DNA of 52,322 bases from Cyclobacteriaceae bacterium (GCA_020436145.1 JAGQYJ010000003.1:9681-62002), one strand, 5' to 3'. Counted from the first letter of the stretch, positions 6,444 through 20,172 are shown. Numbers and translations: made by a program. Notes: generated from the letters alone by a model not told the origin.

Positions 6444-6532
6444 TGCTATAAAACTTAGTTATTTAAAGTAAAGTTAGAAATTATAAAATTTAGTAGATTG
6501 GAGCAATTGCCCAATAATAGTAAACAACATTT

Positions 6533-7054: not shown

Positions 7055-7153
7055 GGATAAAATTCTATTCTGAATGTTATTAACAATGCTGACGCGCGTT
7101 TCGTGTGGTCGCATTAAATCCTGCACGAGTACACATATGTACCTGAGTTGGGT

Positions 7154-7609: not shown

Positions 7610-7617
7610 AAAAACAC

Positions 7618-10446
7618 TTATTTACTTCCAGTCTTCTTCAAAACCGCATCGCTTTGCTCCTGTGCTTTGGCCATAATGTTATCGGCTTGCTTTTGCCCCT
7701 CTTTTTCCACTGTGGTAGCTTTTTTCTCGCCTTCATCGGTTAGTTTTTTGGCGGCAACTTTGGCTGCTTCCTTTTTAAACGGATTGCTCCCCGCATCTTT
7801 GATCAGTTTTTCAGCTTGCACTTTGGATTCAGCTCGTATTTGGTCTGCCGTGTTCTTAGCTTCTTTTTTTACCTGGTCCGCTTTCTTTTGTGCATCGGCC
7901 AATATTTTGTCTGCTTCTTCCTGTGCTTTGGCAACAGCTTCATCTTTGGTCACAGGTATATCCTCACTTATTTTATCTTTAATAAGCTCCTGGGCTTTGT
8001 CAACTGCTGCCTTGGTTACCTGTTCTTTCACAGCATCTTTAGAGTCTGAACCTAGCAGGCTAACTTTCGGACTATCATACTTACCGGTAATGCCTAAGTT
8101 TACCTTGATTTCAGAGGAAGGTTCCTTCTTACTTCCTGTAAACTTATTTAATGCTGCATTTACCTGTTCACCCACCTGGCCGGCAGGAATACTTGTTTTT
8201 ACAGTGTAGTCAAGTGACCCATCCAGGCTTGTGCTACCTGCCACTGTCGATTTATGCCCATCGATAGTAACGTCAAATGGATCCACATTTACTTTTCCGT
8301 CTTCTATATGCACATTCATGGCAATATCCTGTAGAGCAAGACTATTTTTACCGCCTTTACTGGTAAACTTAGTTATTCCTTCAGCCAGCTTTCCACTTAA
8401 GGCGGCTTCCTTAACGTTCAATAAGCCGCCTCCGTTAAGCGTGTTGTATACGGGCATCATGGTGCTGTCGATTAACCCACTTAAAGCAAATTCGGTACTA
8501 ACATCACCGGCAACATTTTTGGCCACTGGCGCCAGTTGTTGTACTGTATTGAATGAATTAAATGATTCCTGAATGGAAATACTTTTCACACCCAACTTCA
8601 TATCAAACGTTGGTTTGCGCAGTTCCTGTGTATTATAAGTCCCATTAAAAACAATAGAGCCGCCCAGGGTAGAAGTTGAAAGGTTGTCCATGGTGAGCAC
8701 TCCATCTCTCACTATGATTTTTCCTTTGGCATTGTTTAAGGTAAGTCCATCATACACAATCTTGGCAAGGTTGGCGTCCATTACAAAATCAATATCTTTT
8801 GGCACCTCAATGGCGGCATATGAATAATCGGTAGCTGTAGTATCCGTTTCTACAACTTCTTCAGTTGTTTCCTCTTCAGTTTCCGGCATCAATTCATCTA
8901 TAAGCAATTGTTTAGAAGAGATGGATAGGCTCCCATGCAATGTTTCGTTTGGGCTAAGAGCGTATTTTAAATAATTAGAAAGTTTACCAGTAGCTGAAAG
9001 GTCACTTGACGCTATTTTCATATCAAATGTTTCCAGCACTATATTTTCTGGCGTAAACGTGGTAACAGCCTTAGGTATTTCCATGCCCTGTGGCAGGTAT
9101 TCCTGGTCGGCATAATAAAAGGAGGTAAGGTTAATGGCTCCGCTTGCAGGAATGGTGTAGTTAACCGTATCGTACACTCCTTTGGCTTGCAAATTTGCAT
9201 CGAGCTGTCCTTTGAGTTCTGTGCCCTCCATCGGGAACATTTGAAGCAATTCTGCAAAATTAAGCCTGGCAGAAATGCTTGTTTCTACAGGGTAGTCAAT
9301 AAGATTACCCACTTTCAGCATAGCATCAATAGGGTTCTTGCCCAATTCCATATGGAATTTGCTTAAATCTACTTTGGTGTTATCGATGTTGCCATCTGCG
9401 TTATCTATATCCAGCTTCATTTGCACGTTAGAAACAGCAGTGGGCAGGTCGGGGTATTGGAACATCCCGTCATTTATTCCTAAATGCACATTAAATGCCG
9501 GCATTTTTTCATCGGTGTACATGCCTTTTAAGCTGGTGTTAAAATCAACCGTACCCGATGCTTTCAGTCCCTCAAAATCAGTAGCATACATGGCGGGAAT
9601 AAGGGATAGGATGCTTTTAAAACTATTGTCTTTGGAAGTAATGGCTAAATCCATATCGTAACCTTCTTCCGGCATGGAGAACCAACCGTTCATTCCAATG
9701 GTAAAATCATTCAGTTTAAATTCGTTGTCCTTGAATGTAAATTTATATTGTTCAAGATCCATAGAAAGAACAGCATCTGCGACCAAATGGCGGTTTTTAA
9801 TATATTCTACCCCATCGTATGAAACTGTAGCAAGCGTAGCCTCCGATTGGGTGTCCATATCAAAAACGGTCAGGGAAAAGTCTCCTGAACCGGTATGGTT
9901 GAGCGCTGTTATTTCCAGCACAAATGGAATGGTTTCATCATCATAGGTTACATCACCATTTATAATTTGCCAGTGCTCAATGGAAAAAGTAAGTGGTTCC
10001 GATTCATCAGCAACTTCCTCTGTTTCTTCTACCTCTTCTTCAGATGAAATGGCAATATCGTAATTGGCTTTGCCATTGGCCAGCACTTTTATCCATATAT
10101 GCGGGTTCTCCAAAAGCAATCCCTGGATGCTTGTTTCCCCATCAAAAAGAATCTTCTTCAGGTTCACTTCCACTTCAAGATTAGTGGTTGAAAACAGTAC
10201 CTTACCGGCAAAGTCGTCCCTGCCTATAACACTCAAGTCTTCAATGCCAACCGTTAGGTTAGGGAAATTGGGAAATAAAGAAACGCTAAAGTTTTCGAGT
10301 TCAAAGTTAATATCCGCATTTACAGATGAGGCTAGTTCTTTATCTATAGCGGCTTTTATATCATCCTTGAAAAAGTAAGGAAGTGTGAAGAGTAGGATAA
10401 GTACGAGAAAAACAACTGATGCGAGAATGATGAGGGCTTTTTTCAT
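7618..10446 (-). CDS. AsmA-family outer-membrane biogenesis / lipid-transport protein
   Basis: 942 aa from ATG 10446 (MKKALIILASVVFLVLILLFTLPYFFKDDIK..). It has an N-terminal anchor, then the AsmA N-terminal block ..NFSVSLFPNFPNLTVGIEDLSVIG.., a long beta-rich body, and a Lys/Ala/Glu-rich C-terminal tail. Confidence 0.8.
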   Translation of the reverse strand: MKKALIILASVVFLVLILLFTLPYFFKDDIKAAIDKELASSVNADINFELENFSVSLFPNFPNLTVGIEDLSVIGRDDFAGKVLFSTTNLEVEVNLKKILFDGETSIQGLLLENPHIWIKVLANGKANYDIAISSEEEVEETEEVADESEPLTFSIEHWQIINGDVTYDDETIPFVLEITALNHTGSGDFSLTVFDMDTQSEATLATVSYDGVEYIKNRHLVADAVLSMDLEQYKFTFKDNEFKLNDFTIGMNGWFSMPEEGYDMDLAITSKDNSFKSILSLIPAMYATDFEGLKASGTVDFNTSLKGMYTDEKMPAFNVHLGINDGMFQYPDLPTAVSNVQMKLDIDNADGNIDNTKVDLSKFHMELGKNPIDAMLKVGNLIDYPVETSISARLNFAELLQMFPMEGTELKGQLDANLQAKGVYDTVNYTIPASGAINLTSFYYADQEYLPQGMEIPKAVTTFTPENIVLETFDMKIASSDLSATGKLSNYLKYALSPNETLHGSLSISSKQLLIDELMPETEEETTEEVVETDTTATDYSYAAIEVPKDIDFVMDANLAKIVYDGLTLNNAKGKIIVRDGVLTMDNLSTSTLGGSIVFNGTYNTQELRKPTFDMKLGVKSISIQESFNSFNTVQQLAPVAKNVAGDVSTEFALSGLIDSTMMPVYNTLNGGGLLNVKEAALSGKLAEGITKFTSKGGKNSLALQDIAMNVHIEDGKVNVDPFDVTIDGHKSTVAGSTSLDGSLDYTVKTSIPAGQVGEQVNAALNKFTGSKKEPSSEIKVNLGITGKYDSPKVSLLGSDSKDAVKEQVTKAAVDKAQELIKDKISEDIPVTKDEAVAKAQEEADKILADAQKKADQVKKEAKNTADQIRAESKVQAEKLIKDAGSNPFKKEAAKVAAKKLTDEGEKKATTVEKEGQKQADNIMAKAQEQSDAVLKKTGSK

Positions 10447-10543
10447 GGCGGGTTTAAGTACATGGTTATTGTGCAATACGTTATAAAAATACAACTATTG
10501 AACAGTATGTAAAGAATGAAATATTATTTCTCTGTTAAAGCAA

Positions 10544-11437
10544 TTATTCTTTAAATAAGTCTGATGATAAATACCGGTCTCCCCGATCGCAAATAATGGA
10601 GACAATGGTAGCAGATCCCGTTAGGGTTTCGACCAGCTTTTCTGCAACCGCCACTGCACCTCCACTACTCATACCGGCAAAAATACCTTCTTCTTTTGCC
10701 AGGCGTCTGGCCATTTGCGTAGCTTCTTCCTGTGATACTTCAATAACTTTGTCCACGCGACTGGCATCGAATATTTTAGGGAGGTACTCGGGAGACCATT
10801 TGCGAATACCAGGTATGCTACTCCCATCCGAAGGTTGAGCTCCAACTATCTGTACCTCCTTAGACTGTTCCTTCAAATACATGGAGGTGCCCATAATGGT
10901 GCCTGTAGTGCCCATGGCAGATACAAAGTGGGTTATTTTACCTTCGGTATCTTTCCAGATTTCCGGCCCGGTGGTTTTGTAATGGGCCAGGTAGTTGTCT
11001 TTGTTGCCAAACTGGTTGAGATTGAAATACCCTGGCTTTTTCAATTTTTCTTCAACATACCTTATAGAGCCTTCAATGGTCTCTTTGGCAGGCGTGAGAA
11101 TAACAGTCGCTCCATAAGCGCGCATGGTATCCACGCGTTCTTGGGTAGAGTTTTCTGGCATCACGAGTTCAATAGCTATATTGAATTGCTTGGCCATCAT
11201 GGCCAGGGCAATACCAGTATTGCCACTTGTGGCTTCAATTAAAGTAGTTCGCTCATTAATTTCTCCACGCTCCAAAGCTGACCGAATCATGTTATAGGCA
11301 GCACGATCTTTTACACTACCTCCAGGGTTTTGCCCCTCCAGCTTGGCATACACTGTAATATCAGGATTTTTGAAAATGCTGTTAAGCTTAATCAAAGGTG
11401 TATTGCCAACGAGTGAGAAAAGATTAGGATACGTCAT
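10544..11437 (-). CDS. cysM: cysteine synthase, CysM (type B)-like
   Basis: PLP block KLEGQNPGGSVKDR and TSGNTGIALA are present. By eye it shares with E. coli CysM (from memory) the blocks ITHFVSAMGTTGTI, GSSIPGIRKW.PEYLP.IF and IICDRGDRYLS, plus the short 297-aa length. Confidence 0.8.
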   Translation of the reverse strand: MTYPNLFSLVGNTPLIKLNSIFKNPDITVYAKLEGQNPGGSVKDRAAYNMIRSALERGEINERTTLIEATSGNTGIALAMMAKQFNIAIELVMPENSTQERVDTMRAYGATVILTPAKETIEGSIRYVEEKLKKPGYFNLNQFGNKDNYLAHYKTTGPEIWKDTEGKITHFVSAMGTTGTIMGTSMYLKEQSKEVQIVGAQPSDGSSIPGIRKWSPEYLPKIFDASRVDKVIEVSQEEATQMARRLAKEEGIFAGMSSGGAVAVAEKLVETLTGSATIVSIICDRGDRYLSSDLFKE

Positions 11438-12224
11438 TTTGAATTGTCACTTGTGCTTTGTTAAAAACTTTAGAGTTGGCAGGAACACTTGATGTAAGCC
11501 ACACATTACCTCCAATCACAGTGTTTTTTCCGATAATGGTATTGCCTCCCAAAATGGTTGCACCGGAATAAATTACCACATTGTCTTCAATGGAGGGATG
11601 ACGTTTGGTTGAAGCCTGGTCCTTGCTTACACTCAATGCACCTAAAGTTACATTTTGGTACAATTTTACGTGATTACCTATGTGGCATGTTTCACCTATT
11701 ACTATGCCTGTACCATGATCGATAACAAAGTCAGAGCCAATATGAGCTCCGGGATGAATATCAATGCCTGTGTCCCGATGAGCACTTTCTGTAAGCACCC
11801 TTGGTACATAAGGAATTTCCAATTTCCACAACTCATGGGCTATACGGTACATGGCAATGGCATAGAAACCAGGATAGGTTTTAATTACTTCAACCACATC
11901 CCGGGCGGCAGGGTCGTTTGCGGCAATGGCTTTAGCATCTGCTTTCATTTTTCTATGGATTTCCGGAATTCTGTTGAAAAACTCATCTGCCAGAGGTATG
12001 CATTTTTTGGGCAACTTATGATCAATCTTTCTTAAAATTCCAATAAGGGCAACCTTTTGCGCTTCATACCGGTGTTGGAATTCGTTGAAAAAACGAAAAC
12101 CCTTTGGGCAACGGTCTGGGAAGAGCAGGTTCAATAAGTTGTCGGCCATATCAATCACTTCTTCTAGGTGAGGGTTATCCTCGGTGGATTGATGTTCTTC
12201 AAAAAGTTCCTTTAAAAAGTCCAT
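11424..12224 (-). CDS. cysE: serine O-acetyltransferase
   Basis: Left-handed beta-helix hexapeptide repeats (..IHPGAHIGSDFVIDHGTGIVIGETCHIGNHVKLYQNVTLG..) preceded by a SAT-type helical N-domain. It overlaps cysM by 14 nt. Confidence 0.85.
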   Translation of the reverse strand: MDFLKELFEEHQSTEDNPHLEEVIDMADNLLNLLFPDRCPKGFRFFNEFQHRYEAQKVALIGILRKIDHKLPKKCIPLADEFFNRIPEIHRKMKADAKAIAANDPAARDVVEVIKTYPGFYAIAMYRIAHELWKLEIPYVPRVLTESAHRDTGIDIHPGAHIGSDFVIDHGTGIVIGETCHIGNHVKLYQNVTLGALSVSKDQASTKRHPSIEDNVVIYSGATILGGNTIIGKNTVIGGNVWLTSSVPANSKVFNKAQVTIQNDVS

Positions 12225-12325
12225 ACAAATATCTCTTATAATGGTGCTAACAGTTGTGCTTATTAAAAGGTTGCAGAAAAGTTACATTTCAAGGTAGACG
12301 ACTTAAATGCTGCACCTCAAAAATT

Positions 12326-12338
12326 ATTTGTAACAAAT
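12326..12338. promoter_or_regulatory. perfect 13-bp palindrome ATTTGTAACAAAT in the cysE / Mo-operon divergent region (operator candidate)
   Basis: Six-bp arms ATTTGT/ACAAAT around a single central A, read directly from the sequence. It lies 101 nt from the cysE ATG and 146 nt from ATG 12485. Confidence 0.3.
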
Positions 12339-12484
12339 CTAAATTATGAAATAAGCTAGCTCCTTCAAATATTCTATTGTATTTAACCAAGTTTGTAAAA
12401 TATTTAGTTTGTATATATGAATATATCATCATATATTAATGCGTTAATAACAACCGAATTTTTTACTTAACTTAATATCAACCA

Positions 12485-14104
12485 ATGAAATACGGCTTTG
12501 TATTGGACAACCGAAAATGTATCGGTTGTCACGCCTGTACAGTTGCCTGTAAGTCTGAACACGATGTACCCGTAGGGGTAAACAGAACTTATGTAAAGCA
12601 AGTTGAAAAAGGCGAGTACCCCAACTCCAAACGACTGTTTTCAGTTACCCGTTGTAACCATTGTACAGATGCTCCCTGTGTGGAAATCTGTCCGGTGGAG
12701 TGTTTGCATATACGCCCTGACGGAATTGTAGACTTCAATGATGACCGTTGTATCGGGTGTAAATCGTGCATGCAGGCGTGCCCCTACGATGCATTGTACA
12801 TAAACCCTGAGACGAATACAGCGGCTAAATGTAACTATTGTGCCCATAGAATTGACATTGGTCTTGAGCCGGCCTGTGTGAATGTATGCCCCGAGCATGC
12901 GATCATTTCCGGTGATATGGACAATCCTGAATCCGAGATATCTCAATTGATTGCCAATCAGAATGTGATGGTTCGTAAGCCTGAAAAAGGCACTATGCCA
13001 AATGTATTTTATATTAATAGTGACGAAGTGGTGCTTACACCTTCAGCTACTGAAAAGAGCGATGACACTCTGTGGAGCTCTCAATCTAATGGCGTTGGAC
13101 ATTATGCCAAGTTTGCTGAAAGCCTTTCCAAAAAATCGTATGAAGAAATGGCTTCTACATTGGCTGGCAACCCTGATACGGTTAAAACCTATGCAGGCAA
13201 CAAACCTGCTCCTGCCAAAACACAAATGGCAGCTATTATGGAAAAGGCAAACGCCAAACGTGTATATGATACTCCTGACAAAGGTATTCTTTGGGGGTGG
13301 GAAGTATCAGGCTATGTATTTACCAAGGCTATCTCAGCCGGAAGCATTCTTGTTCTATTTCTAGCCAACTTCCTGAATGTTGGATTCTCAGCGGAAACCA
13401 ATTGGTTAGGTATAGGATTAGGGCTTGGCTTCCTGGTTTTAACAGGGGGCTTATTGGTGAAAGACCTTGATCAGCCGCTACGATTTGTTTATGTGTTACT
13501 GCGACCGCAATGGAGATCGTGGCTGGTGCGCGGAGGATATTCTATAACTGCTTTTGGTGGTTTATTGACCCTGTGGGCGGTAGGATTGTATTTTGATATT
13601 CATCTGGTATCGGATATTGCCATGTGGCTTTCTGCAGCATTTGCAGTAGTGGTTGCTATCTATACTGCCTTCCTGTTTGCACAGGCAAAAGGCCGTGATT
13701 TCTGGCAAAGCCCGACTCTGGCCTTCCATATGTTTATTCATAGTGTAATGGCAGGTGCCGGAGCTTTGGCTATTGGCAACTTGCTTATGGCAAACGATGC
13801 CAACTGGGGTGGTTTCCTGGAAACCATCTTATTGATCACTTTGGTCGCCAATGTGGTTCTGTTGGTTGTTGAGTTGGGTACAACGCACCCAACTGCTGAT
13901 GCAAAAGCTACCGTTCATATGATCATGAAAGGTCGTTACAAAAACCGCTTCTGGGGTGGAGTTGTATTCTTTGGCAACCTGCTTCCTATTGCAATGGTAT
14001 TCTTTGGAGCACCGGCAGCAGTCACCGGCCTGGTTGCTTTGATCGGCATCATTTTGCAGGAGAAAATCTGGGTGGAAGCGCCTCAACGTATTCCTTTAGC
14101 TTAA
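12485..14104 (+). CDS. fusion protein: four-cluster [4Fe-4S] ferredoxin (PsrB/NrfC/DmsB type) + NrfD/PsrC-type 8-TM quinone-interacting anchor
   Basis: Four Cys groups: CIGCHACTVAC, CNHCTDAPCVEICP, CIGCKSCMQACP and CNYCAHRIDIGLEPACVNVCP. A hydrophilic linker of about 80 aa follows, then eight hydrophobic helices to the C-terminus. No N-terminal signal. Confidence 0.85.
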   Translation: MKYGFVLDNRKCIGCHACTVACKSEHDVPVGVNRTYVKQVEKGEYPNSKRLFSVTRCNHCTDAPCVEICPVECLHIRPDGIVDFNDDRCIGCKSCMQACPYDALYINPETNTAAKCNYCAHRIDIGLEPACVNVCPEHAIISGDMDNPESEISQLIANQNVMVRKPEKGTMPNVFYINSDEVVLTPSATEKSDDTLWSSQSNGVGHYAKFAESLSKKSYEEMASTLAGNPDTVKTYAGNKPAPAKTQMAAIMEKANAKRVYDTPDKGILWGWEVSGYVFTKAISAGSILVLFLANFLNVGFSAETNWLGIGLGLGFLVLTGGLLVKDLDQPLRFVYVLLRPQWRSWLVRGGYSITAFGGLLTLWAVGLYFDIHLVSDIAMWLSAAFAVVVAIYTAFLFAQAKGRDFWQSPTLAFHMFIHSVMAGAGALAIGNLLMANDANWGGFLETILLITLVANVVLLVVELGTTHPTADAKATVHMIMKGRYKNRFWGGVVFFGNLLPIAMVFFGAPAAVTGLVALIGIILQEKIWVEAPQRIPLA

Positions 14105-14134
14105 TTGTATCAAAAGAATTAAAAGAAGAATAAG

Positions 14135-16999
14135 ATGTCATATAAACATAAACCCACAGTTGTAGAAAGAATAGCAGAAGCCCTGCATTTGATACCCAAT
14201 CTACACAATGTAAAAGATCCCGAAATCCCAAGACTAACTGAACCGGGAGACCTGACCGCATACCCTCCGCCTGAAAAATGGGACAACTGGACAGAATATG
14301 AACCCAAAGGTTGGGGCAAGAAAGAAACAAAAACCTATTCTATTGTGCCCACCACATGCTTTAACTGTGAATCAGCTTGCGGTTTGCTAAGTTACATTGA
14401 CCATGAAACTGGTAAAATACGTAAGTTCGAGGGCAACCCTTACCATCCTGCCAGCCGTGGTAGAAACTGTGCAAAAGGTCCTGCTACTATTAACCAGGTA
14501 GAAGATTCCGATCGGATTTTGTATCCAATGAAGCGCAAAGGCAAAAGAGGCGATGGTGAATGGGAAAGAGTATCTTGGGACGAGGCACTTGATGATATTG
14601 CAGGTAGAATACGAAAAGCGTTACAAGAGAAACGTAATAACGAAGTGGCCTACCATGTAGGCCGTCCAGGCCATGAGGGCTACATGGACCGCGTGCTAAA
14701 ATCGTGGAATGTGGATGGCCATAATAGCCATACCAATGTGTGTTCTTCTGGAGCCCGGTTTGGTTATAATATCTGGCATGGGTACGACAGGCCATCAGCG
14801 GATTTTGCCAACGCCAAGTTTATCCTCTTAATTAGTGCTCATCTTGAGTCAGGCCATTACTTTAACCCGCACGCACAACGCATTATGGAAGGTATGATGG
14901 AAGGAGCCAAACTGGCTACCATGGATCCACGTCTGTCCAATACGGCAAGCATGGCAAACTACTGGATGCCTACCAATCCCGGATCTGAAGCAGCGGTTCT
15001 TTTGGCCATGGCCAAGATTATTATTGAAGAAGACATGGTAAACCATGACTATGTCAAGAATTGGGTTAATTGGGAAGAATATCTTGAAAAGGTACATCCC
15101 GATACTAAAGTTACGTATGAGAACTACATTGAAAAATTAAAAGAAGAATACAAGGAGTATACTCCTGAATATGCGGAACAAGAAAGTGGTGTGAAGGCAG
15201 CAACTATTATAAAAGTAGCACACGAAATAGGTAAGGCCGGTTCCCGCTTTGCAACTCATAACTGGAGAAGTGCCGGATCAGGTAATTTAGGCGGATGGGC
15301 TGTTGCTCGTGCGCTGCATTTCCTGAATGTGCTAACAGGTAGCGTGGGAACCGTAGGGGGTACTTCGCCCAGCGCATGGAACAAGTTTAAGCCTACATTC
15401 TTTGATAATCCTCCAGCGCAAAAATTCTGGAACGAGTTACATTTTCCCAATGAATATCCATTGGCATTTTTTGAAATGAGCCAACTTTTACCTCACTTCT
15501 TAAAAGAAGGTCGCGGTAAAATGGACGTGTACTTCACCCGAGTATTTAACCCGATTTGGACATATCCTGATGGCTTTACCTGGATGGAGGCGCTTTCTAA
15601 TGAAGACATGGTAGGTATGCATATAGCACTTACACCCACCTGGAGCGAAACGGCCTACTTTGCAGACTATGTTTTGCCAATGGGTCTGGCTCCGGAACGG
15701 CATGATGTCAACAGCTATGAAACCCATAGTGGTGTTTGGATTGCCTTCAGACAGCCTGTACTTAGGGAATACGCCCGTAGAACGGGTAAGCCATTCACCT
15801 TTACATATGAAGTAAACCCCGGAGAAGTTTGGGAAGAAGATGAATTCTGGATTGAGCTTTCGTGGAGGATTGACCCGGATGGTAGCCTGGGTATTCGTGA
15901 GCACTTCCTGTCTCCTTACAGGAAAGGTGAAAAAATAACCATTGACGAATACTATCAGTTTATGTTCGAAAATGTGAAAGGTCTGCCTGAGGCTGCTGCG
16001 AAAGAAGGCATGAATGCCTTGGACTACATGAAAAAGTTTGGTGCTTTTGAAATTGAAAATGCAGTGTATAACCTTCACATGAAGGAACTTTCAGCCGAAC
16101 AAATGAAAGGTACTACTGTCGATAAGAAAACTGGAGTTATTACCAAAGACGGTTCGCCATTAGGTGTTCAGGTGGAAGGTAAAAATGTAGTGGGTTTCCC
16201 AACGCCTTCGCGTAAGCAGGAGTTTTTCTCACAAACTATGATCGACTGGAAATGGCCTGAATACACTGTGCCTACCTATATTAAGAGTCATGTGCATGAG
16301 CAGGAAATGGATCGTGAAAAAGGGGATTTCCCTTTGGTTCCAACTTTCCGTTTACCAGTCTTAATCCACTCTCGTTCGGGTAATGCCAAGTGGCTAACGG
16401 AGATTGCCAACCGTAACCCGGTTTGGATGCACACACAGGATGCAACACGCTTTGGTATTAAAACAGGAGATCTTATTCGGGTTAATACAGACATTGGCTA
16501 CTTTGTAGATAAGGTTTGGGTAACAGAAGGAATGAAACCCGGAGTGGTAGCATGTTCTCACCACCTTGGAAGATGGAGAAGGCCACAGGATAAAGAGGCG
16601 AACCGTTGGGCAACCAATACGGTTAAGATCGAGAATGCTGATGGTAAGTGGAAGATGAGTACCATTTCAGGAATTAAGCCTTATCAAAGTAGCGACAAAG
16701 ATTCGAAGCGGATATTCTGGAGCGATGGTGGCGTTCATCAGAACATTACTTTCCCGGTGCACCCCGATCCTATCAGCGGTATGCACTGTTGGCACCAAAA
16801 AGTAAGGATTGAGGTGGCACATCCGGAAGATAAGTATGGTGACATTATGGTGGATACCAATAAATCGCATGAGGTTTATAAAGAATGGTTATCTTGGACC
16901 CGGCCGGCACCTGGCCCTAATGGGGAGAGAAGACCGATCTGGTTCCACAGGGCGCTTAGGCCTGCACCTGAAACATTTTATATAAAGGACAAAAAGTAG
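14135..16999 (+). CDS. molybdopterin (bis-PGD) oxidoreductase catalytic subunit without Tat signal; SoeA-like candidate
   Basis: 954 aa. FS0 motif C75-x2-C78-x3-C82-x29-C112 (TTCFNCESACGLL...GRNCAKG). Candidate Mo-ligand Cys203 sits in HTNVCSSGA. No RRxF twin-arginine motif or hydrophobic leader in the first 74 aa. The general family call is confident (0.9); the Soe-like subtype is inference (about 0.4). Confidence 0.9.
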   Translation: MSYKHKPTVVERIAEALHLIPNLHNVKDPEIPRLTEPGDLTAYPPPEKWDNWTEYEPKGWGKKETKTYSIVPTTCFNCESACGLLSYIDHETGKIRKFEGNPYHPASRGRNCAKGPATINQVEDSDRILYPMKRKGKRGDGEWERVSWDEALDDIAGRIRKALQEKRNNEVAYHVGRPGHEGYMDRVLKSWNVDGHNSHTNVCSSGARFGYNIWHGYDRPSADFANAKFILLISAHLESGHYFNPHAQRIMEGMMEGAKLATMDPRLSNTASMANYWMPTNPGSEAAVLLAMAKIIIEEDMVNHDYVKNWVNWEEYLEKVHPDTKVTYENYIEKLKEEYKEYTPEYAEQESGVKAATIIKVAHEIGKAGSRFATHNWRSAGSGNLGGWAVARALHFLNVLTGSVGTVGGTSPSAWNKFKPTFFDNPPAQKFWNELHFPNEYPLAFFEMSQLLPHFLKEGRGKMDVYFTRVFNPIWTYPDGFTWMEALSNEDMVGMHIALTPTWSETAYFADYVLPMGLAPERHDVNSYETHSGVWIAFRQPVLREYARRTGKPFTFTYEVNPGEVWEEDEFWIELSWRIDPDGSLGIREHFLSPYRKGEKITIDEYYQFMFENVKGLPEAAAKEGMNALDYMKKFGAFEIENAVYNLHMKELSAEQMKGTTVDKKTGVITKDGSPLGVQVEGKNVVGFPTPSRKQEFFSQTMIDWKWPEYTVPTYIKSHVHEQEMDREKGDFPLVPTFRLPVLIHSRSGNAKWLTEIANRNPVWMHTQDATRFGIKTGDLIRVNTDIGYFVDKVWVTEGMKPGVVACSHHLGRWRRPQDKEANRWATNTVKIENADGKWKMSTISGIKPYQSSDKDSKRIFWSDGGVHQNITFPVHPDPISGMHCWHQKVRIEVAHPEDKYGDIMVDTNKSHEVYKEWLSWTRPAPGPNGERRPIWFHRALRPAPETFYIKDKK

Positions 17000-17000
17000 A

Positions 17001-18740
17001 TTGAAGAAGAGTACCCTACATAGAGTATTCCCCTTCCTGGCCTGGACCGGAAGGGTAAATAAGGATACGCTAAAGGCAGATTCAATAGCTGGCCTTACGG
17101 GCGCTATTATTGTGTTGCCTCAGGGTATTGCTTTTGCAGCTATAGCGGGTATGCCACCTATCTATGGTCTGTACACAGCAATGGTCACTCCTATAGTAGC
17201 GGCACTTTTTGGCTCTTCATGGCATTTGATTTCGGGGCCAACGACAGCTATATCACTGGTGGTTTTTGGAACAGTGAGCAAATTTGCAGTTCCGGAAACA
17301 CATGAGTATGTTCAATTTGTATTGACGCTTACATTTCTGGCCGGAGTATTTCAGCTGGCCATGGGGTTGGCCAGATTAGGAACACTTGTCAACTTTGTGT
17401 CCCACTCTGTAGTGGTTGGGTTTACGGCAGGAGCGGCAATTTTAATTGCCACGAGCCAGCTTGGCAAAGTGTTTGGCATAAGCGTATCACGAGAGGGTGA
17501 CTTTATTGGTAAATGGGTAAGCATTTTTAATGGTGTACCTGACACTAATCTTTACGTGTTTGGTGTGGCAATGGTAACACTGATTTCTGCTTTGGTGCTC
17601 AAAAGGTTTGCCCCCCGGGTTCCCAATTTACTTACAGCTATGATTATTGGAAGCCTGTTGTCCTATTTTGTCAAAGGGAGCGTTCATGGTGTAGAATTGG
17701 TTGGTAAGCTGGACTCCACACTGCCTCCGTTTTCGATGCCGGATTTTGCCCGTATTGAAATTGAAGAGCTTGCGCCTTATGCTTTTGCTGTAGCTTTGCT
17801 TGGTCTTATTGAGGCAGTTGCCATTGGGAAATCTATTGCCTCTAAATCTCATCAGCGCATAGACGGAAATCAGGAGTTTATTGGTCAGGGGTTATCTAAT
17901 ATTATTGGTAGTTTTTTTTCAAGTTATGCGGGCTCCGGTTCCTTTACGCGTTCGGGAGTTAATTATACAGCAGGTGCAAAAACACCAATGGCGGCCATTT
18001 TTGCTGCATTAATGCTCATGTTGGTGCTGCTGCTTATTGCACCACTTACTGCATATTTACCCATTGCGGCTATGGGGGGTATTATATTGCTGGTTGCCTA
18101 TAATTTGATTGACTTTAAGAGTATAAAACAAATTGTTAAGTCAGGTAGCGCAGAAACAGCTGTTTTTGGGGTAACCATGCTTTCAACGCTTTTACTGGAA
18201 CTGGAATTTGCCATTTATCTTGGGGTAATTATCTCATTAATTTTTTACCTGCAGCGTACAGCCAGTCCGCATGTGGTGACACTGGCTCCTGATAAAGACA
18301 ATGAGCACAGGGCATTTGTTGATATTGAAAACAAGCCAATGCCTACATGCCCCCAGCTTAGGATTATTCAAATTGATGGCCCGTTGTTTTTTGGTGCGGT
18401 GAGTAAAATGGAAGATAAGTTAGGGGCTTTATATGACCAAGGAGAGCAGAATCTTTTAATTGTTGGTAATGGAATAGGAATGATTGACCTTGCCGGTGCC
18501 GAGTTTTTGGAAAGAGAAACCTATAAATGGCATAACTCAGGGAGGGGACTTTATTTCTGTTCCTTAAGTAAACCAGTACAAAAGTATCTGGAGAAAGGGG
18601 GTTTCATGGAGCATATTGGTAAGGAAAATATGTTTGAAACCAAGCTTACGGCACTCAAATCAATTTATGCCAGATTAGACAAAGGTATTTGCAGTACATG
18701 TACTGCGCGAATATTTAATGAGTGTAAAAATGACAAGTAA
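17001..18740 (+). CDS. SulP-family sulfate/anion transporter with C-terminal STAS domain
   Basis: TTG start 1 nt after the upstream stop. The N-terminus is typical of SulP (..FPFLAWTGRVNKDTLKADSIAGLTGAIIVLPQGIAFAAIAGMPP..). It has a polytopic core and a STAS domain (..IIQIDGPLFFGAVSK..LIVGNGIGMIDLAGAEFL..). Confidence 0.9.
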   Translation: MKKSTLHRVFPFLAWTGRVNKDTLKADSIAGLTGAIIVLPQGIAFAAIAGMPPIYGLYTAMVTPIVAALFGSSWHLISGPTTAISLVVFGTVSKFAVPETHEYVQFVLTLTFLAGVFQLAMGLARLGTLVNFVSHSVVVGFTAGAAILIATSQLGKVFGISVSREGDFIGKWVSIFNGVPDTNLYVFGVAMVTLISALVLKRFAPRVPNLLTAMIIGSLLSYFVKGSVHGVELVGKLDSTLPPFSMPDFARIEIEELAPYAFAVALLGLIEAVAIGKSIASKSHQRIDGNQEFIGQGLSNIIGSFFSSYAGSGSFTRSGVNYTAGAKTPMAAIFAALMLMLVLLLIAPLTAYLPIAAMGGIILLVAYNLIDFKSIKQIVKSGSAETAVFGVTMLSTLLLELEFAIYLGVIISLIFYLQRTASPHVVTLAPDKDNEHRAFVDIENKPMPTCPQLRIIQIDGPLFFGAVSKMEDKLGALYDQGEQNLLIVGNGIGMIDLAGAEFLERETYKWHNSGRGLYFCSLSKPVQKYLEKGGFMEHIGKENMFETKLTALKSIYARLDKGICSTCTARIFNECKNDK

Positions 18741-19047
18741 TCGTCAGGCACATCAGGGAGAGTTGGAAAAAGCAGCTTTTGTTTTGAAAACGATTGCTCA
18801 TCCAACACGGCTTGCTATAATCGATTTTCTTTCCAAAGAGGGTAGAAAAACGGTTTCGGAGATTTGTACCTCTCTTGACCTGGAACAGTCACTTGCTTCA
18901 CACCATTTGAACACAATGAAGCTAAAAGGTGTTTTAGGAAGTACCAAGGAAGGAAAAAACAAATACTACTATTTAAAGCTTATGGAGGTTACACAAATTA
19001 TAAGTTGTATTGACGATTGTGACCTTTCATTTAACATTTACGATTAG
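18718..19047 (+). CDS. ArsR/SmtB-family winged-helix transcriptional regulator
   Basis: LKTIAHPTRLAIIDFLSKEGRKTVSEICTSLDLEQSLASHHLNTMKLKGVL is the ArsR HTH core. The start (ATG 18718 or 18730) overlaps the SulP 3' end. Confidence 0.85.
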   Translation: MSVKMTSNRQAHQGELEKAAFVLKTIAHPTRLAIIDFLSKEGRKTVSEICTSLDLEQSLASHHLNTMKLKGVLGSTKEGKNKYYYLKLMEVTQIISCIDDCDLSFNIYD

Positions 19048-19111
19048 AAAAAAAGAAATATCATCTAAACAACCATAACAATGTTTAAACCTAAATTAAA
19101 CTCAATTAATT

Positions 19112-19684
19112 ATGAATAAGGTAATTGAATTTATCCAGCAACCGTGGCCCTGGTGGGTATCAGGACCGTTGATTGCCTATATCATGTTTTCCTTGTTGTA
19201 TTTTGGAAAAGGGTTTGGGTTATCTACTAACTTCAAAACTGTATGCAACATTTTGGGAGCAGATAAGTTTTCAGATTTTTTCAAATTTGACTGGCGGGAC
19301 CAGATTTGGAACCTGGTATTTGTTACCGGAACAATTATTGGCGGATTCCTTGCTGCGCACTATTTAACACCTTCCCAGGTGGTGGCTATTTCTCCAAGTA
19401 CCATTGCTGATTTGAAAGCAATTGGGGTTGCCAACCCCGGAGCATCTTATGAGCCGGAAATGTTTAATGCTGAAAATGTATGGTCATTACGAAGTATGAT
19501 CTTTTTATTGGCAGGTGGATTCTTTGTAGGCTTTGGAACGCGCTATGCCAACGGGTGTACCTCGGGGCATGCTATTAGTGGCTTAAGTAACCTGCAAAAA
19601 TGGTCGTTGGTAGCGGTGGTTGGTTTCTTTATAGGAGGGCTAACTATGACCCACCTGATCATGCCTTATTTAATGAAACTCTAA
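19112..19684 (+). CDS. YeeE/YedE-family sulfur-compound transport protein, N-terminal-half type
   Basis: 190-aa membrane protein with the family Cys motif ..RYANGCTSGHAISG... Confidence 0.8.
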   Translation: MNKVIEFIQQPWPWWVSGPLIAYIMFSLLYFGKGFGLSTNFKTVCNILGADKFSDFFKFDWRDQIWNLVFVTGTIIGGFLAAHYLTPSQVVAISPSTIADLKAIGVANPGASYEPEMFNAENVWSLRSMIFLLAGGFFVGFGTRYANGCTSGHAISGLSNLQKWSLVAVVGFFIGGLTMTHLIMPYLMKL

Positions 19685-19696
19685 AAAATTATTATA

Positions 19697-20110
19697 ATGA
19701 AATACGTACGTTTTTTTATAATGGGTATCCTTTTTGGGATCATCCTCAGCAAAAGTGAAGTAATTTCCTGGTTCAGGATTCAGGAAATGTTTAGGTTTCA
19801 GAGTATCCATATGTATGGTGTAATTGGAACAGCCGTAATAACCGGTATTCTGGTTATTCAGTTTATTAAAAGAACAAAAATGAAAGATGCCCAGGGCCAA
19901 TATATCCAGGTAGTGGAACAGGAACCGGGATATGCACGCAACCTGATAGGCGGGACCATTTTTGGCTTGGGCTGGGCCTTAACGGGAGCTTGCCCGGGAC
20001 CATTGTTCATACTTCTTGGTCATCAGGGCTTGGTTTTTCTAATACCTTTGGCAGGGGCAGTACTTGGCACTTTTGTGTACGGTATTTTACGGCCTAAGTT
20101 GCCACACTAA
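19697..20110 (+). CDS. YeeE/YedE-family protein, second-half type (DUF6691-like)
   Basis: 137-aa membrane protein with ..GLGWALTGACPGP... It starts 12 nt after the first half-gene. Confidence 0.75.
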   Translation: MKYVRFFIMGILFGIILSKSEVISWFRIQEMFRFQSIHMYGVIGTAVITGILVIQFIKRTKMKDAQGQYIQVVEQEPGYARNLIGGTIFGLGWALTGACPGPLFILLGHQGLVFLIPLAGAVLGTFVYGILRPKLPH

Positions 20111-20144
20111 TATTTTTAGTTCGCTTCATGAAATTAAAATTGTG

Positions 20145-20172
20145 AAAGAGGTTTTTTTAAAACCTCTTTTTT
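20145..20172 (+). terminator. intrinsic terminator closing the 12485-20110 unit (may also serve the convergent M23 gene)
   Basis: AAAGAGGTTTT-ttt-AAAACCTCTTT is an 11-bp perfect stem, followed by a T-run (20167-20172). It sits between the convergent stops at 20110 and 20171. Confidence 0.7.

What the first reader, a model, noticed from the sequence alone, without database searches (positions are those of the whole stretch)
12485..20110. Candidate uncharacterised sulfur module: cytoplasm-facing Soe-like molybdoenzyme + SulP + ArsR + split YeeE/YedE in one transcription unit
Seen: six plus-strand genes are packed with spacers of 30 nt, 1 nt, a 23-nt overlap, 64 nt and 12 nt. The first convincing hairpin/T-run terminator after 12485 is at 20145-20172. 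Upstream is a 260-bp AT-rich region shared divergently with cysE-cysM. Known: NrfD-anchored Mo-bisPGD enzymes (Psr, Phs, Ttr types) normally carry a Tat leader and face the periplasm. The characterised exception is SoeABC, the cytoplasmic sulfite:quinone oxidoreductase of Allochromatium vinosum and Ruegeria pomeroyi, whose SoeA is (from memory) in the same size class of about 950 aa. YeeE/YedE (TsuA) imports thiosulfate, and SulP carriers move sulfate. Inference: the unit could import thiosulfate, oxidise cytoplasmic sulfite to sulfate while feeding electrons into the quinone pool, and export the sulfate, all under an ArsR-type sensor. An alternative is a cytoplasmic thiosulfate/polysulfide reductase supplying sulfide to CysM. 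I am not aware that this gene combination, with the B-C fusion and BC-before-A order, has been characterised in Bacteroidota. I cannot verify that without a database search.
Basis: partly seen in the sequence, partly recalled or inferred. Interest (0 to 1): 0.7.

Follow-up and report, generated by a model that had tools for sequence, protein, structure and literature searches.

The report
Cytoplasm-facing Soe-like sulfite-oxidising operon
This is a Bacteroidota copy of a widespread but biochemically untested two-gene molybdenum enzyme (called PSRLC3 in green sulfur bacteria) that most likely oxidises sulfite inside the cell, here linked to a sulfate-type permease, a repressor with a conserved binding site, and a split sulfur transporter.

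Summary
Six plus-strand genes lie at the stated coordinates with the stated spacings: a fused FeS-NrfD protein ("BC"), a Tat-less Mo-bisPGD subunit ("A"), SulP, ArsR and two YeeE/YedE halves. One strong terminator follows at 20144-20170.

The claim of novelty is overstated. The B-C fusion and the BC-before-A order are the norm for a very large family. More than 8000 database relatives were found. The 80 best genome loci span about a dozen bacterial phyla and one euryarchaeote, and plasmid hits add haloarchaea and Actinomycetota. Chlorobium homologues are 69% identical and sit next to the dsr genes. This matches the two-gene "PSRLC3" of green sulfur bacteria, which the literature infers to be a sulfite oxidase.

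No curated family of known substrate is matched (Phs, Dms, Arr, Ttr, Fdh, Nar and others). Across at least seven phyla the pair sits beside persulfide dioxygenase-rhodanese, SQR, TusA/DsrE and anion exporters. That supports cytoplasmic sulfite:quinone oxidation.

The six-gene set is a mosaic. The closest relative lacks SulP, another lacks the YeeE halves, and cysE-cysM adjacency is seen only in the window and its closest relative (L095).

One new detail emerged. An invariant palindrome, ATATATGA-N8-TCATATAT, lies upstream of BC in all four loci that carry this ArsR, and was not found in the other fetched loci.

I could not compare the protein directly with Allochromatium SoeA.

The parts
12413..12436 (.). 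Palindrome ATATATGA-N8-TCATATAT, 49 nt upstream of the first gene. It is the candidate operator of the ArsR-family repressor.
   Evidence: Inverted repeat I3. It is the only match in the window at up to 2 mismatches, with 0.05 expected. Zero-mismatch copies lie at the same position upstream of BC in L071, L095 and L096, the three related loci that carry the same ArsR gene. It is absent from L015, which has no ArsR, at up to 3 mismatches, and from the other 93 loci held at the time at 0 mismatches. The arms are invariant and the spacer differs in each locus.
12485..14104 (+). Fused electron-transfer and membrane-anchor subunit ("BC"). The N-terminal domain carries four [4Fe-4S] clusters (residues ~1-180). 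A ~90-residue linker follows, then an 8-helix NrfD/PsrC-type quinone-binding domain (~278-523).
   Evidence: Fer4_11 at residues 51-144 and NrfD at 267-505. The closest solved relatives of the FeS part are ArrB and PsrB. There are 16 Cys in four cluster motifs and no signal peptide. K/R count is 14 on the loops on the same side as the FeS domain and 0 on the opposite side. The fusion lies upstream of A in 74 of 80 related genome loci.
14135..16999 (+). Catalytic Mo-bisPGD subunit ("A"), 954 aa, cytoplasmic. The FS0 cluster uses Cys75/78/82/112. Cys203 is the predicted Mo ligand.
   Evidence: Three Pfam domains. No NCBIfam model reaches its cut-off; the best is PhsA at 209 bits against 694. The closest solved structures are ArrA (1e-41) and PsrA (1e-36). 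Cys203 aligns with their Mo-ligand Cys motifs; the identity of those Cys residues as Mo ligands is from memory. There is no Tat leader. Identity to Chlorobium homologues is 69%.
17001..18740 (+). SulP-family anion permease with a STAS domain, the proposed sulfate exporter.
   Evidence: TIGR00815 scores 403 bits against a cut-off of 380. An orthologous SulP (50-65% identity) lies directly downstream of A in many Bacteroidota. It is missing in the closest relative. In Chlorobium a TauE/SafE exporter gene occupies this position.
18718..19047 (+). ArsR/SmtB-family repressor with an invariant C-terminal CxxxC pair (Cys97, Cys101).
   Evidence: NF033788 scores 68 bits against a cut-off of 55. The BigR model scores only 38 bits against 155. 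Cys97 and Cys101 are invariant in four orthologues, and Cys50 is not. The gene co-occurs with the upstream palindrome in 4 of 4 loci.
19112..19684 (+). [quoted passage not shown]
   Evidence: Sulf_transp profile positions 256-309. GCTSGH Cys motif. The classification of short Pmp proteins follows PMC11582611.
19697..20110 (+). PmpB-like half of the split YeeE/YedE transporter, matching the N-terminal half.
   Evidence: Sulf_transp profile positions 10-103, plus DUF6691. GACPGP Cys motif. The pair recurs beside BC-A in L023, L028, L036, L047 and L071 and in L095.
20144..20170 (+). Intrinsic terminator closing the unit.
   Evidence: 12-bp stem, 3-nt loop and T run. It is the strongest + strand site between 12000 and 20400.
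10544..12224 (-). Divergent cysE-cysM pair. This is neighbouring context, not a conserved part of the module.
   Evidence: CysM NF008735 scores 460 bits against a cut-off of 413. CysE matches the EpsC-type SAT model. The adjacency is kept only in the closest relative L095, not in L071, L096 or L097.

Best explanation
Genes 1 and 2 encode a cytoplasm-facing, membrane-bound Mo-bisPGD enzyme of the PSRLC3 / Soe-like kind. It most likely works as a sulfite:menaquinone oxidoreductase.

Proposed mechanism:
1. Sulfite formed in the cytoplasm is oxidised to sulfate at the Mo centre of subunit A (Cys203 ligand). Possible sources are thiosulfate or S-sulfocysteine assimilation, persulfide dioxygenase encoded elsewhere in the genome, and cysteine or sulfonate breakdown.
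2. Electrons pass through FS0 and the four [4Fe-4S] clusters of the N-terminal domain of the BC fusion to a quinone bound in its NrfD domain. That domain sits in the membrane upside-down relative to periplasmic Psr-type enzymes.
3. The SulP permease removes the sulfate.
4. The PmpAB-like split YeeE/YedE pair moves a sulfur anion across the membrane, either thiosulfate or sulfane sulfur.
5. The ArsR-family protein, with its conserved CxxxC pair, represses the whole unit by binding the palindrome ATATATGA-N8-TCATATAT upstream of gene 1.

Shown by these analyses: gene content, cytoplasmic topology, family membership, neighbourhood statistics, and the co-occurrence of repressor and palindrome.

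Inferred: the substrate (sulfite), the direction of catalysis, what the two transporters carry and in which direction, and what the repressor senses.
For: Topology:
- No Tat or Sec signal on A or BC, and none in any homologue whose N-terminus could be read among the 86 inspected.
- Positive-inside count of 14 against 0.

Family:
- The best 80 loci from a scan of 185,579 species genomes are 59-84% identical. They come from Bacteroidota, Chlorobiaceae, Acidobacteriota, Planctomycetota, Chloroflexota, Calditrichota, Marinimicrobia, Gemmatimonadales, Binatia and others.
- Haloarchaea, Thermomicrobium and Rhodococcus homologues are 54-58% identical.
- Chlorobium sp. N1 has fused BC, then A, TauE/SafE, DsrE2, rhodanese, TusA, DsrN and DsrA. 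This matches the "2 genes encoding PSRLC3" of green sulfur bacteria (PMC5473276), which is inferred to be a sulfite oxidase (PMC9324843; PMC6338057).

Guilt by association with enzymes that produce sulfite:
- A PDO-rhodanese fusion lies within 9 kb in 25 of 80 loci. SQR-like genes occur in 10, SulP in 20, TusA in 7, DsrE in 6 and TauE in 5.
- The association appears in at least seven phyla. Examples are Gaetbulibacter (YeeE-YeeE-BC-A-SulP-SulP-PDO_Rhd-..-Trx-SQR) and Rhodococcus jostii pRHL3 (PDO, ArsR, DsrE, TusA, BC, A, Mrp). In T. roseum a CsoR-like regulator gene lies directly upstream.

Known substrates excluded: every NCBIfam equivalog of known substrate scores far below its cut-off.

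Regulation: the palindrome and ArsR co-occur in 4 of 4 loci, and the palindrome was not found in the other fetched loci.

Energetics, from established redox potentials and not computed here: sulfite/sulfate at about -516 mV against menaquinone at about -74 mV makes oxidation strongly favourable.
Against: - No member of this fused-BC clade has been assayed, and the PSRLC3 function is itself only inferred in the literature.
- I could not obtain the A. vinosum, R. pomeroyi or A. aeolicus SoeA sequences. The relationship to the only biochemically proven Soe enzymes is therefore untested.
- Indirect signs point to a separate clade. IMG gives these proteins only a generic COG name rather than the soeA KO name. 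A published survey of NrfD-like subunits found SoeC only in Proteobacteria, Clostridia and Aquificae (PMC8076601).
- The window holds no PDO, SQR, TusA or DsrE, so the local source of sulfite is unknown.
- SulP is missing in the closest relative, so sulfate export by SulP is not essential to the enzyme.
- 41 of the 80 loci show no sulfur-linked neighbour within the sequence held, although many of those contigs are short.
Confidence: 0.6

Rival explanations
1. The enzyme is cytoplasmic and of the same family, but it acts on a different sulfur species. Candidates are thiosulfate, tetrathionate, or a TusA/DsrE-bound persulfide or thiosulfonate, rather than free sulfite.
For: TusA and DsrE genes lie directly upstream of BC in Rhodococcus jostii pRHL3. 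They lie close by in Chlorobium, Marinimicrobia and one Bacteroidota MAG. PDO-rhodanese fusions also make thiosulfate. The closest scoring curated model is PhsA. No substrate has been measured for this clade.
Against: No Mo-bisPGD enzyme that oxidises thiosulfate or a carrier-bound sulfur is known (from memory). The literature on the green sulfur bacterial homologue proposes sulfite. The anion exporter genes (SulP, TauE/SafE) placed right after A fit a free oxyanion product.
Confidence: 0.15
2. The locus is not one functional module. BC-A (with or without SulP) is a self-contained enzyme cassette, and ArsR-PmpA-PmpB is an independent sulfur-stress cassette that happens to lie next to it.
For: The parts occur separately. 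There is BC-A-SulP without ArsR or YeeE in most Bacteroidota, BC-A-ArsR-YeeE-YeeE without SulP, and BC-A-SulP-ArsR without YeeE. ArsR plus PmpAB cassettes are known elsewhere, for example in Serratia (PigS-PmpAB; from memory, and see PMC11582611). A 64-nt spacer with weak promoter-like hits precedes the first YeeE gene.
Against: The palindrome linked to ArsR lies upstream of BC, not upstream of the YeeE genes. It is kept there in all four loci with this ArsR, including L096, which has no YeeE genes. No inverted repeat was found in the ArsR-YeeE spacer. The YeeE pairs also recur beside BC-A in Saprospiraceae and Flavobacteriaceae that lack ArsR.
Confidence: 0.2
3. The enzyme is a cytoplasmic thiosulfate or polysulfide reductase that makes sulfide for CysM.
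For: cysE-cysM lie divergently next to the unit in the window and in the closest relative. The best curated model hit is PhsA, and a close solved relative is PsrA.
Against: The cysEM adjacency is lost in L071, L096, L097 and all more distant loci. The conserved partners are oxidative: PDO, SQR and the dsr cluster of sulfur-oxidising Chlorobium. Reducing thiosulfate or polysulfide with menaquinol is endergonic (established redox potentials). The PhsA score is 209 against a cut-off of 694.
Confidence: 0.05
4. The enzyme is a formate:quinone oxidoreductase. Some database records name family members "formate dehydrogenase". A published survey tentatively named an uncharacterised Chlorobi, Actinobacteria and Chloroflexi complex FqoABC.
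For: NCBI names for P0036 and P0070. The taxa listed for the tentative FqoC group in PMC8076601 overlap those found here.
Against: Formate dehydrogenase models score 158 bits against a cut-off of 666, and 124 against 814. The Mo-ligand Cys203 is followed by Ser, not by the His of the Cys/Sec-His pair typical of formate dehydrogenases (the motif is from memory). The nearest solved structures are ArrA and PsrA, not Fdh. The neighbourhoods are all sulfur-related. I could not check whether Fqo and this family are the same thing.
Confidence: 0.03
5. The enzyme is an arsenic or other metalloid oxyanion oxidoreductase under an ArsR metalloregulator.
For: The best solved-structure match is ArrA/ArrB. 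The regulator belongs to the ArsR/SmtB family.
Against: ArrA scores 142 bits against a cut-off of 1600, and ArrB 168 against 450. ArrA is Tat-exported (from memory), and this protein is not. No ars, arr or arx genes appear in the window or in the related loci whose annotated or called genes were read. ArsR is absent from most loci that carry the enzyme.
Confidence: 0.02

Closest known systems
PSRLC3 (polysulfide-reductase-like complex 3) of green sulfur bacteria (Frigaard & Bryant 2008; Gregersen et al. 2011, as cited in PMC9324843 and PMC5473276)
   Same: Both have a two-gene layout: a fused FeS-NrfD protein followed by a Tat-less Mo subunit. The A subunit is 69% identical and the BC subunit 48-50% identical to Chlorobium sp. 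N1 and three Chlorobiaceae MAGs. An anion exporter gene lies directly downstream. Both share the predicted cytoplasmic orientation and the inferred sulfite-oxidising role.
   Different: The host is an aerobic heterotrophic Cyclobacteriaceae, not an anoxygenic phototroph. There is no dsr cluster nearby. The exporter is SulP instead of TauE/SafE. An ArsR repressor with its own operator and a PmpAB pair have been added. I matched the label PSRLC3 to the Chlorobium loci by its published description (two genes, cytoplasmic), not by locus tags.
SoeABC sulfite:quinone oxidoreductase of Allochromatium vinosum, Ruegeria pomeroyi and Aquifex aeolicus (Dahl et al. 2013; Boughanemi et al. 2020, as cited in PMC8076601)
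   Same: Both are membrane-bound Mo-bisPGD + 4x[4Fe-4S] + NrfD-type enzymes whose catalytic subunit lacks a Tat signal and faces the cytoplasm. In both, the NrfD subunit is expected to be inverted in the membrane. From memory, the abstract of Dahl et al. 2013 treats the green sulfur bacterial complex as a Soe homologue.
   Different: Here B and C are one polypeptide and come before A. From memory, soeA, soeB and soeC are three separate genes in the order A-B-C. Sequence relatedness could not be measured because no SoeA sequence could be retrieved. IMG does not give these proteins the soeA KO name. A published survey did not find SoeC in Bacteroidetes or Chlorobi.
PsrABC / PhsABC / ArrAB periplasmic reductases (solved structures 2VPZ and 6CZ7)
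   Same: They share the domain architecture, the FS0 motif and a Cys ligand to Mo. They are the nearest solved structures (ArrA 1e-41, PsrA 1e-36).
   Different: Those enzymes are Tat-exported and face the periplasm, have separate B and C subunits, and are about 760-815 aa long against 954 aa here. The PhsA and ArrA equivalog scores are far below their cut-offs.
PigS/BigR-type ArsR regulators with PmpAB (short YeeE/YedE) transporters; SoxT/TsuA full-length YeeE proteins (PMC11582611)
   Same: There is an ArsR-family repressor next to two short YeeE/YedE halves. [quoted passage not shown]
   Different: The repressor is not a BigR equivalog (38 bits against 155). It lacks the alpha2/alpha5 Cys pair and has a C-terminal CxxxC instead. 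Its candidate operator lies in front of the molybdoenzyme genes.

Membership tests
PSRLC3-type two-gene cytoplasmic Psr-like complex (green sulfur bacteria) | Encoded by two genes: a PsrB-PsrC fusion and a PsrA-like Mo subunit | tested here: met
   Fer4_11 and NrfD lie in one 539-aa ORF, followed by the Mo subunit. The literature speaks of "2 genes encoding PSRLC3" (PMC5473276). The Chlorobium loci show the same fusion and gene order.
PSRLC3-type two-gene cytoplasmic Psr-like complex (green sulfur bacteria) | No export signal, so the catalytic side faces the cytoplasm | tested here: met
   No RR motif or hydrophobic leader is present. The positive-inside count is 14 against 0.
PSRLC3-type two-gene cytoplasmic Psr-like complex (green sulfur bacteria) | Close sequence relationship to the green sulfur bacterial proteins | tested here: met
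   The A subunit is 69% identical over its full length, and BC is 48-50% identical, to Chlorobium sp. N1 (L052) and the Chlorobiaceae MAGs L051, L053 and L062.
PSRLC3-type two-gene cytoplasmic Psr-like complex (green sulfur bacteria) | Identity with the specific locus tags that Frigaard & Bryant called PSRLC3 | not testable with these tools
   The defining papers are not held, and no locus tags are available in the tools.
SoeABC sulfite:quinone oxidoreductase | Cytoplasm-facing Mo-bisPGD subunit with an FS0 cluster, a four-cluster FeS subunit and an NrfD-type anchor | tested here: met
   The Soe description is taken from PMC8076601.
SoeABC sulfite:quinone oxidoreductase | Three separate genes, soeA-soeB-soeC | tested here: not met
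   B and C are fused and precede A. The same holds in at least 67 of 80 related loci. The A-B-C order of soe is from memory.
SoeABC sulfite:quinone oxidoreductase | Orthology of the A subunit to A. vinosum SoeA (D3RNN8) | not testable with these tools
   No SoeA sequence could be retrieved. There is no SoeA model in NCBIfam and no solved structure. Indirect evidence: the generic IMG name, and the fact that apart from this family's own cluster the 50%-identity representative library shows no other Tat-less, ~950-aa relative above 263 bits.
SoeABC sulfite:quinone oxidoreductase | Sulfite-dependent quinone reduction | not testable with these tools
   This needs a biochemical assay.
Periplasmic thiosulfate/polysulfide reductase (PhsA/PsrA) | Tat leader and an equivalog-level match | tested here: not met
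   There is no Tat leader. NF012032 PhsA scores 208.8 bits against a cut-off of 694.
Respiratory arsenate reductase ArrAB | Equivalog-level match to ArrA and ArrB | tested here: not met
   ArrA scores 142 bits against 1600, and ArrB 168 against 450.
Formate dehydrogenase (FdnG/FdhA type) | Equivalog-level match and a Cys/Sec-His active-site pair | tested here: not met
   TIGR01591 scores 158 bits against 666, and TIGR01553 scores 124 against 814. The ligand context is NVCSS, with no His after the Cys.
PmpAB-type split YeeE/YedE transporter | Two short proteins matching the C-terminal and the N-terminal half of full-length YeeE, each with one conserved Cys | tested here: met
   The matches are to profile positions 256-309 and 10-103 of PF04143. 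The Cys motifs are GCTSGH and GACPGP. The definition comes from PMC11582611. The first protein is 190 aa, longer than the ~130 aa quoted there.
BigR/SqrR-type persulfide-sensing ArsR repressors | Equivalog-level match and a Cys pair in helices alpha2 and alpha5 | tested here: not met
   NF040642 scores 38 bits against 155. Only the C-terminal Cys97 and Cys101 are conserved. The position of the BigR Cys pair is from memory.
SulP anion permease | TIGR00815 above its cut-off, with Sulfate_transp and STAS domains | tested here: met
   403 bits against 380. The Pfam E-values are 1.3e-102 and 2.1e-9. The substrate and the direction of transport were not tested.

The most novel reading that the evidence does not exclude
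The fused-BC/A enzyme is the main cytoplasmic sulfite:quinone oxidoreductase of aerobic heterotrophic Bacteroidota and of many other phyla (Acidobacteriota, Planctomycetota, Chloroflexota, Actinomycetota, haloarchaea). On this reading it completes the SQR-PDO sulfide-oxidation route to sulfate. It goes uncounted in KO-based sulfur-cycle surveys because it is not annotated as soeABC. In this lineage it has come under an ArsR-type sulfur sensor that uses a previously undescribed palindromic operator.
Probability: 0.45. Interest if true: 0.6.

Novelty: new member of a known kind. Interest (0 to 1): 0.4.

Why it matters
Metagenomic sulfur budgets usually count sulfite oxidation through soeABC, sorAB, SUOX and aprAB/sat. 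[quoted passage not shown]

If this family does oxidise sulfite, a large share of sulfite-oxidising capacity in Bacteroidota and other heterotrophs is being missed. The family is found in several hundred species genomes and is named only "molybdopterin-dependent oxidoreductase".

The family is present in culturable strains: Gaetbulibacter, Lutibacter, Flavilitoribacter, Rhodococcus jostii RHA1 and Thermomicrobium roseum. The long-standing PSRLC3 hypothesis is therefore directly testable outside green sulfur bacteria. The ArsR-palindrome pair offers a simple system for finding what signal switches the enzyme on.

Tried and rejected
1. Getting a genuine SoeA sequence for a tree failed by every route.
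- NCBIfam has no SoeA model.
- No Soe structure is in the PDB copy.
- The plasmid collection gave only the same family, or unrelated ~730-aa Mo enzymes in Alpha- and Betaproteobacteria.
- The Azoarcus plasmid homologue carries a Tat leader.
- Cluster look-ups returned no useful names.
- The best 80 genome loci contained no Alpha- or Gammaproteobacteria.
- Gregersen et al. 2011 is not held.
For this reason I built no MopB phylogeny that includes SoeA. Placement rests on model scores, identities and gene context.

2. Literature searches for a described Bacteroidota version found only KO-based surveys.

3. Rfam found no riboswitch or other RNA family in the window, so there is no Moco riboswitch.

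4. A search for PDO, SQR, TusA or DsrE inside the window found none.

5. I rejected a BigR/SqrR-type sensor, formate dehydrogenase, arsenate reductase and periplasmic Psr/Phs as classifications, on model scores and motifs.

6. I did not run AlphaFold on the BC fusion. The signal-peptide and positive-inside evidence already settles the orientation, and the tool would have needed another large database search to build an allowed alignment.

Full report
**Observation.** The spacings are 30 nt, 1 nt, a 23-nt overlap, 64 nt and 12 nt. Domain scans confirm every assignment:
- a 539-aa fusion of a four-cluster ferredoxin domain (Fer4_11) with an NrfD/PsrC membrane domain;
- a 954-aa Mo-bisPGD subunit with an N-terminal Fe4S4 domain;
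- a SulP/STAS permease (TIGR00815 above its cut-off);
- a 109-aa ArsR/SmtB regulator;
- two short YeeE/YedE proteins that match the C-terminal half (profile positions 256-309) and the N-terminal half (10-103) of Pfam Sulf_transp.

The strongest terminator-like structure on this strand is at 20144-20170. The weaker hits inside the unit are no more numerous than chance. The 260-bp upstream region is AT-rich and is shared with divergent cysE and cysM. No Rfam family matches anywhere in the window. The closest database relatives are labelled Cyclobacteriaceae, so the window probably comes from that family.

**Orientation.** The Mo subunit begins MSYKHKPTVVERIAEALHLIPNLH, with no twin-arginine motif and no hydrophobic stretch. 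The ferredoxin domain starts at residue 1 of the fusion protein. None of the homologues whose N-terminus could be read, among the 86 loci I inspected, carries a Tat leader. A hydropathy scan, which I read by eye as eight helices, puts 14 Lys/Arg on the loops that share a side with the N-terminal FeS domain and none on the other side. The FeS domain cannot be exported without a signal and is covalently joined to helix 1. The enzyme therefore faces the cytoplasm, and its NrfD domain is inverted relative to periplasmic Psr-type enzymes. The same inversion has been proposed for SoeC (PMC8076601).

**What the enzyme is not.** No NCBIfam model reaches its cut-off for the A subunit: PhsA 209 bits against 694, DmsA/YnfE 208 against 778, ArrA 142 against 1600, TtrA 113 against 1750, formate dehydrogenases 158 against 666 and 124 against 814, with NarG, NapA and TorA lower still. 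The nearest solved structures are ArrA (1e-41) and PsrA (1e-36), matching over parts of the sequence only. Cys203 aligns with the Cys motifs of both that, from memory, hold the Mo ligand. It is followed by Ser, not by the His typical of formate dehydrogenases. That condition is not met for any family that has a curated model.

**What the enzyme is.**
- The protein search returned more than 8000 relatives, and the top 120 are 75-95% identical. Those that carry a taxon label are from Cyclobacteriaceae, Flavobacteriales, Saprospiraceae, Lewinellaceae or unclassified Bacteroidota, and none has an informative name.
- The plasmid collection holds full-length homologues, 54-58% identical, in haloarchaea (Natrinema, Halomarina, Halomicrococcus), Thermomicrobium roseum and Rhodococcus jostii RHA1.
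The best 80 loci are 59-84% identical. They come from Bacteroidota, Chlorobiaceae, Acidobacteriota, Planctomycetota, Calditrichota, Marinimicrobia, Chloroflexota, Gemmatimonadales, Binatia, "Deltaproteobacteria" MAGs, a Spirochaetia MAG and a euryarchaeote.
- In 74 of the 80 loci the BC gene lies directly upstream of A, and in at least 67 it is clearly a single fused gene.

The B-C fusion and the BC-before-A order are therefore the family norm, not a peculiarity of this locus.

**Link to the literature.** Chlorobium sp. N1 and three Chlorobiaceae MAGs carry a 69%-identical A subunit behind a fused BC. In Chlorobium sp. N1 the pair is followed by a TauE/SafE-type exporter gene, dsrE2, a rhodanese gene, tusA, dsrN and dsrA. 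Green sulfur bacteria are reported to have "2 genes encoding PSRLC3" (PMC5473276). That complex is "inferred to be sulfite oxidase" (PMC9324843) and is called "an alternative sulfite-oxidizing system" (PMC6338057). From memory, the abstract of Dahl et al. 2013 treats this complex as the green sulfur bacterial counterpart of SoeABC. I therefore file the window's BC-A pair as a Bacteroidota member of the PSRLC3 kind. I matched that label to the Chlorobium loci by its published description, not by locus tags, because the defining papers are not held.

**Relationship to proven SoeABC.** I could not test this directly, because no SoeA sequence could be obtained (see the record of failed attempts). 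Three indirect observations suggest a clade distinct from the proteobacterial enzyme:
- IMG gives these proteins a generic COG name rather than the soeA KO name.
- A survey of NrfD-like subunits found SoeC only in Proteobacteria, Clostridia and Aquificae.
- In the 50%-identity representative library the whole family collapses into one cluster. The only other Tat-less hits of comparable or greater length are divergent members of the same family. The remaining relatives, at 31-46% identity, carry Tat leaders.

**Function.** The strongest evidence is gene context repeated across unrelated phyla.
- Within at most 9 kb of BC-A, 25 of 80 loci carry a persulfide dioxygenase-rhodanese fusion. Ten carry an SQR-like flavoprotein, 20 a SulP, 7 a TusA, 6 a DsrE, 5 a TauE/SafE and 5 a YeeE pair.
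- The PDO association appears in Saprospiraceae, Flavobacteriaceae, Ktedonobacterales, Terriglobia, Marinimicrobia, a euryarchaeote, a "Deltaproteobacteria" MAG and Rhodococcus.
- Gaetbulibacter sp. S0825 has the full set in one row: Crp-like regulator, YeeE, YeeE, BC, A, SulP, SulP, PDO-rhodanese, a Tll0287-like gene, thioredoxin, SQR-like.
- Rhodococcus jostii pRHL3 has thioredoxin, PDO, ArsR, two DUF202 genes, PDO, DsrE, TusA, BC, A and Mrp/NBP35.
- Thermomicrobium roseum has a CsoR-like "metal-sensitive" regulator gene directly upstream.

PDO and reverse Dsr both release sulfite into the cytoplasm (established biochemistry). An anion exporter gene (SulP or TauE/SafE) sits immediately after A in 13 of the 69 loci that have enough downstream sequence, and in further loci from the contig look-ups. 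Sulfite oxidation with menaquinone is strongly exergonic. Thiosulfate or polysulfide reduction with menaquinol is endergonic. Cytoplasmic sulfite:quinone oxidation followed by sulfate export is thus the best-supported mechanism, at about 0.6 confidence. The substrate has never been measured for any member of the clade.

**The six-gene unit.** It is a mosaic.
- One Cyclobacteriaceae MAG (L071, A subunit 84% identical) has the identical order BC-A-SulP-ArsR-YeeE-YeeE.
- The closest relative (L095, 95% identical) shares the cysM-cysE, M23 peptidase and MatE flanks but lacks SulP.
- L096 (87% identical) has BC, a small inserted gene, A, SulP and ArsR, but no YeeE genes.
- L097 (80% identical) has BC-A-SulP-SulP.
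- cysE-cysM adjacency is limited to the window and L095.

The window itself holds no PDO, SQR, TusA or DsrE, and the other flanking genes I scanned are unrelated to sulfur.

**Regulation (new here).** A perfect palindrome, ATATATGA-N8-TCATATAT, lies at 12413-12436, 49 nt before the BC start codon. It is the only match in the window at up to two mismatches, with 0.05 expected. Zero-mismatch copies occur 55-67 nt upstream of BC in L071, L095 and L096. Those are exactly the loci that carry an orthologue of this ArsR. The palindrome is absent from L015, a Cyclobacteriaceae locus without ArsR, at up to three mismatches. It is absent at zero mismatches from the other 93 loci held when one search was run. 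The arms never vary and the 8-nt spacer differs in every copy, which is the pattern expected of a protein-binding site. The four ArsR orthologues share an invariant C-terminal CxxxC (Cys97, Cys101), while Cys50 is not conserved. The protein is not a BigR equivalog (38 bits against 155). This supports the idea that ArsR controls the promoter of the molybdoenzyme genes.

**The transporters.** The two YeeE/YedE halves fit the PmpA/PmpB type. [quoted passage not shown] The window proteins carry GCTSGH and GACPGP motifs. Whether they import thiosulfate, import sulfane sulfur or export an anion is unknown. The same holds for the direction of transport by SulP.

**Verdict.** A Soe-like, cytoplasm-facing sulfite oxidoreductase is the best reading. 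The enzyme, however, is a member of a known and very widespread family, although one that has not been characterised biochemically. The specific six-gene combination is a lineage-specific and unstable arrangement. Novelty: a new member of a known kind. Two points are worth follow-up: the ArsR-palindrome pair, and the likely under-annotation of this family in sulfur-cycle surveys.

Noticed in passing
window 12413-12436; L071 7281-7304; L095 7256-7279; L096 6822-6845: A perfect palindrome, ATATATGA-N8-TCATATAT, has invariant arms and a variable spacer. It lies 49-67 nt upstream of the BC start codon in all four loci that carry this ArsR gene and in no other fetched locus. It is the candidate operator.
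   Followed up: yes
L095 (closest relative, A subunit 95% identical), 9001-13358: The closest relative has the same flanks (cysM-cysE upstream, M23 peptidase and MatE downstream) but no SulP gene between A and ArsR. SulP was therefore recently gained or lost in this lineage.
   Followed up: partly
P0128 (1115 aa) and P0164 (1123 aa) from the representative search: Tat-bearing relatives (46% and 35% identity) keep the family's N-terminal YPPxE(K/Q)W motif right after a twin-arginine leader. The cytoplasmic family thus appears to have a periplasmic relative, which implies a change of orientation during evolution.
   Followed up: no
P0125 (958 aa, 39% identity): This divergent full-length, Tat-less family member lacks the HNSHTNVCS motif, including the Mo-ligand Cys. 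It may be a cofactor-less paralogue.
   Followed up: no
window 14135-14210 (residues 1-25 of A) and homologues in L015-L066: A conserved N-terminal motif, x-I-E-[KR]-[IFL]-A-E-x-[LI]-x-[LI]-I-P-x-L-H, precedes the FS0 domain in Bacteroidota, Chlorobiaceae, Calditrichota, Acidobacteriota and others. It is missing in the Chloroflexota and Actinomycetota members. Its function is unknown; it could be a docking or chaperone-binding helix.
   Followed up: no
L096 8558-8932: A 124-aa gene with a 23S_rRNA_IVP (four-helix-bundle) domain is inserted between BC and A in one relative.
   Followed up: no
L007 (Rhodococcus jostii RHA1 pRHL3), L008 (Natrinema halophilum plasmid): In Actinomycetota and haloarchaea an Mrp/NBP35 Fe-S cluster carrier gene lies directly downstream of A in place of SulP. 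On pRHL3 the pair is embedded in a PDO/ArsR/DsrE/TusA/thioredoxin cluster on a mobilizable linear plasmid.
   Followed up: partly
L009 (Sulfurovum mangrovi plasmid) 4084-9169; L014 (Azoarcus sp. KH32C plasmid) 4245-12136: More distant relatives (33-45% identity) have unfused B and C, a TorD-type chaperone and an extra 4Fe-4S protein. The Azoarcus A subunit has a Tat leader. The Sulfurovum A gene is split into two ORFs, which may reflect a frameshift or a pseudogene.
   Followed up: no
L039-L041, L044, L046-L050 (Flavobacteriaceae) and L097: Two different SulP genes often lie in tandem after BC-A. One is 50-60% identical to the window's SulP. The other is only about 32% identical and usually sits next to the PDO-rhodanese gene. 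This hints at two different anion specificities.
   Followed up: no
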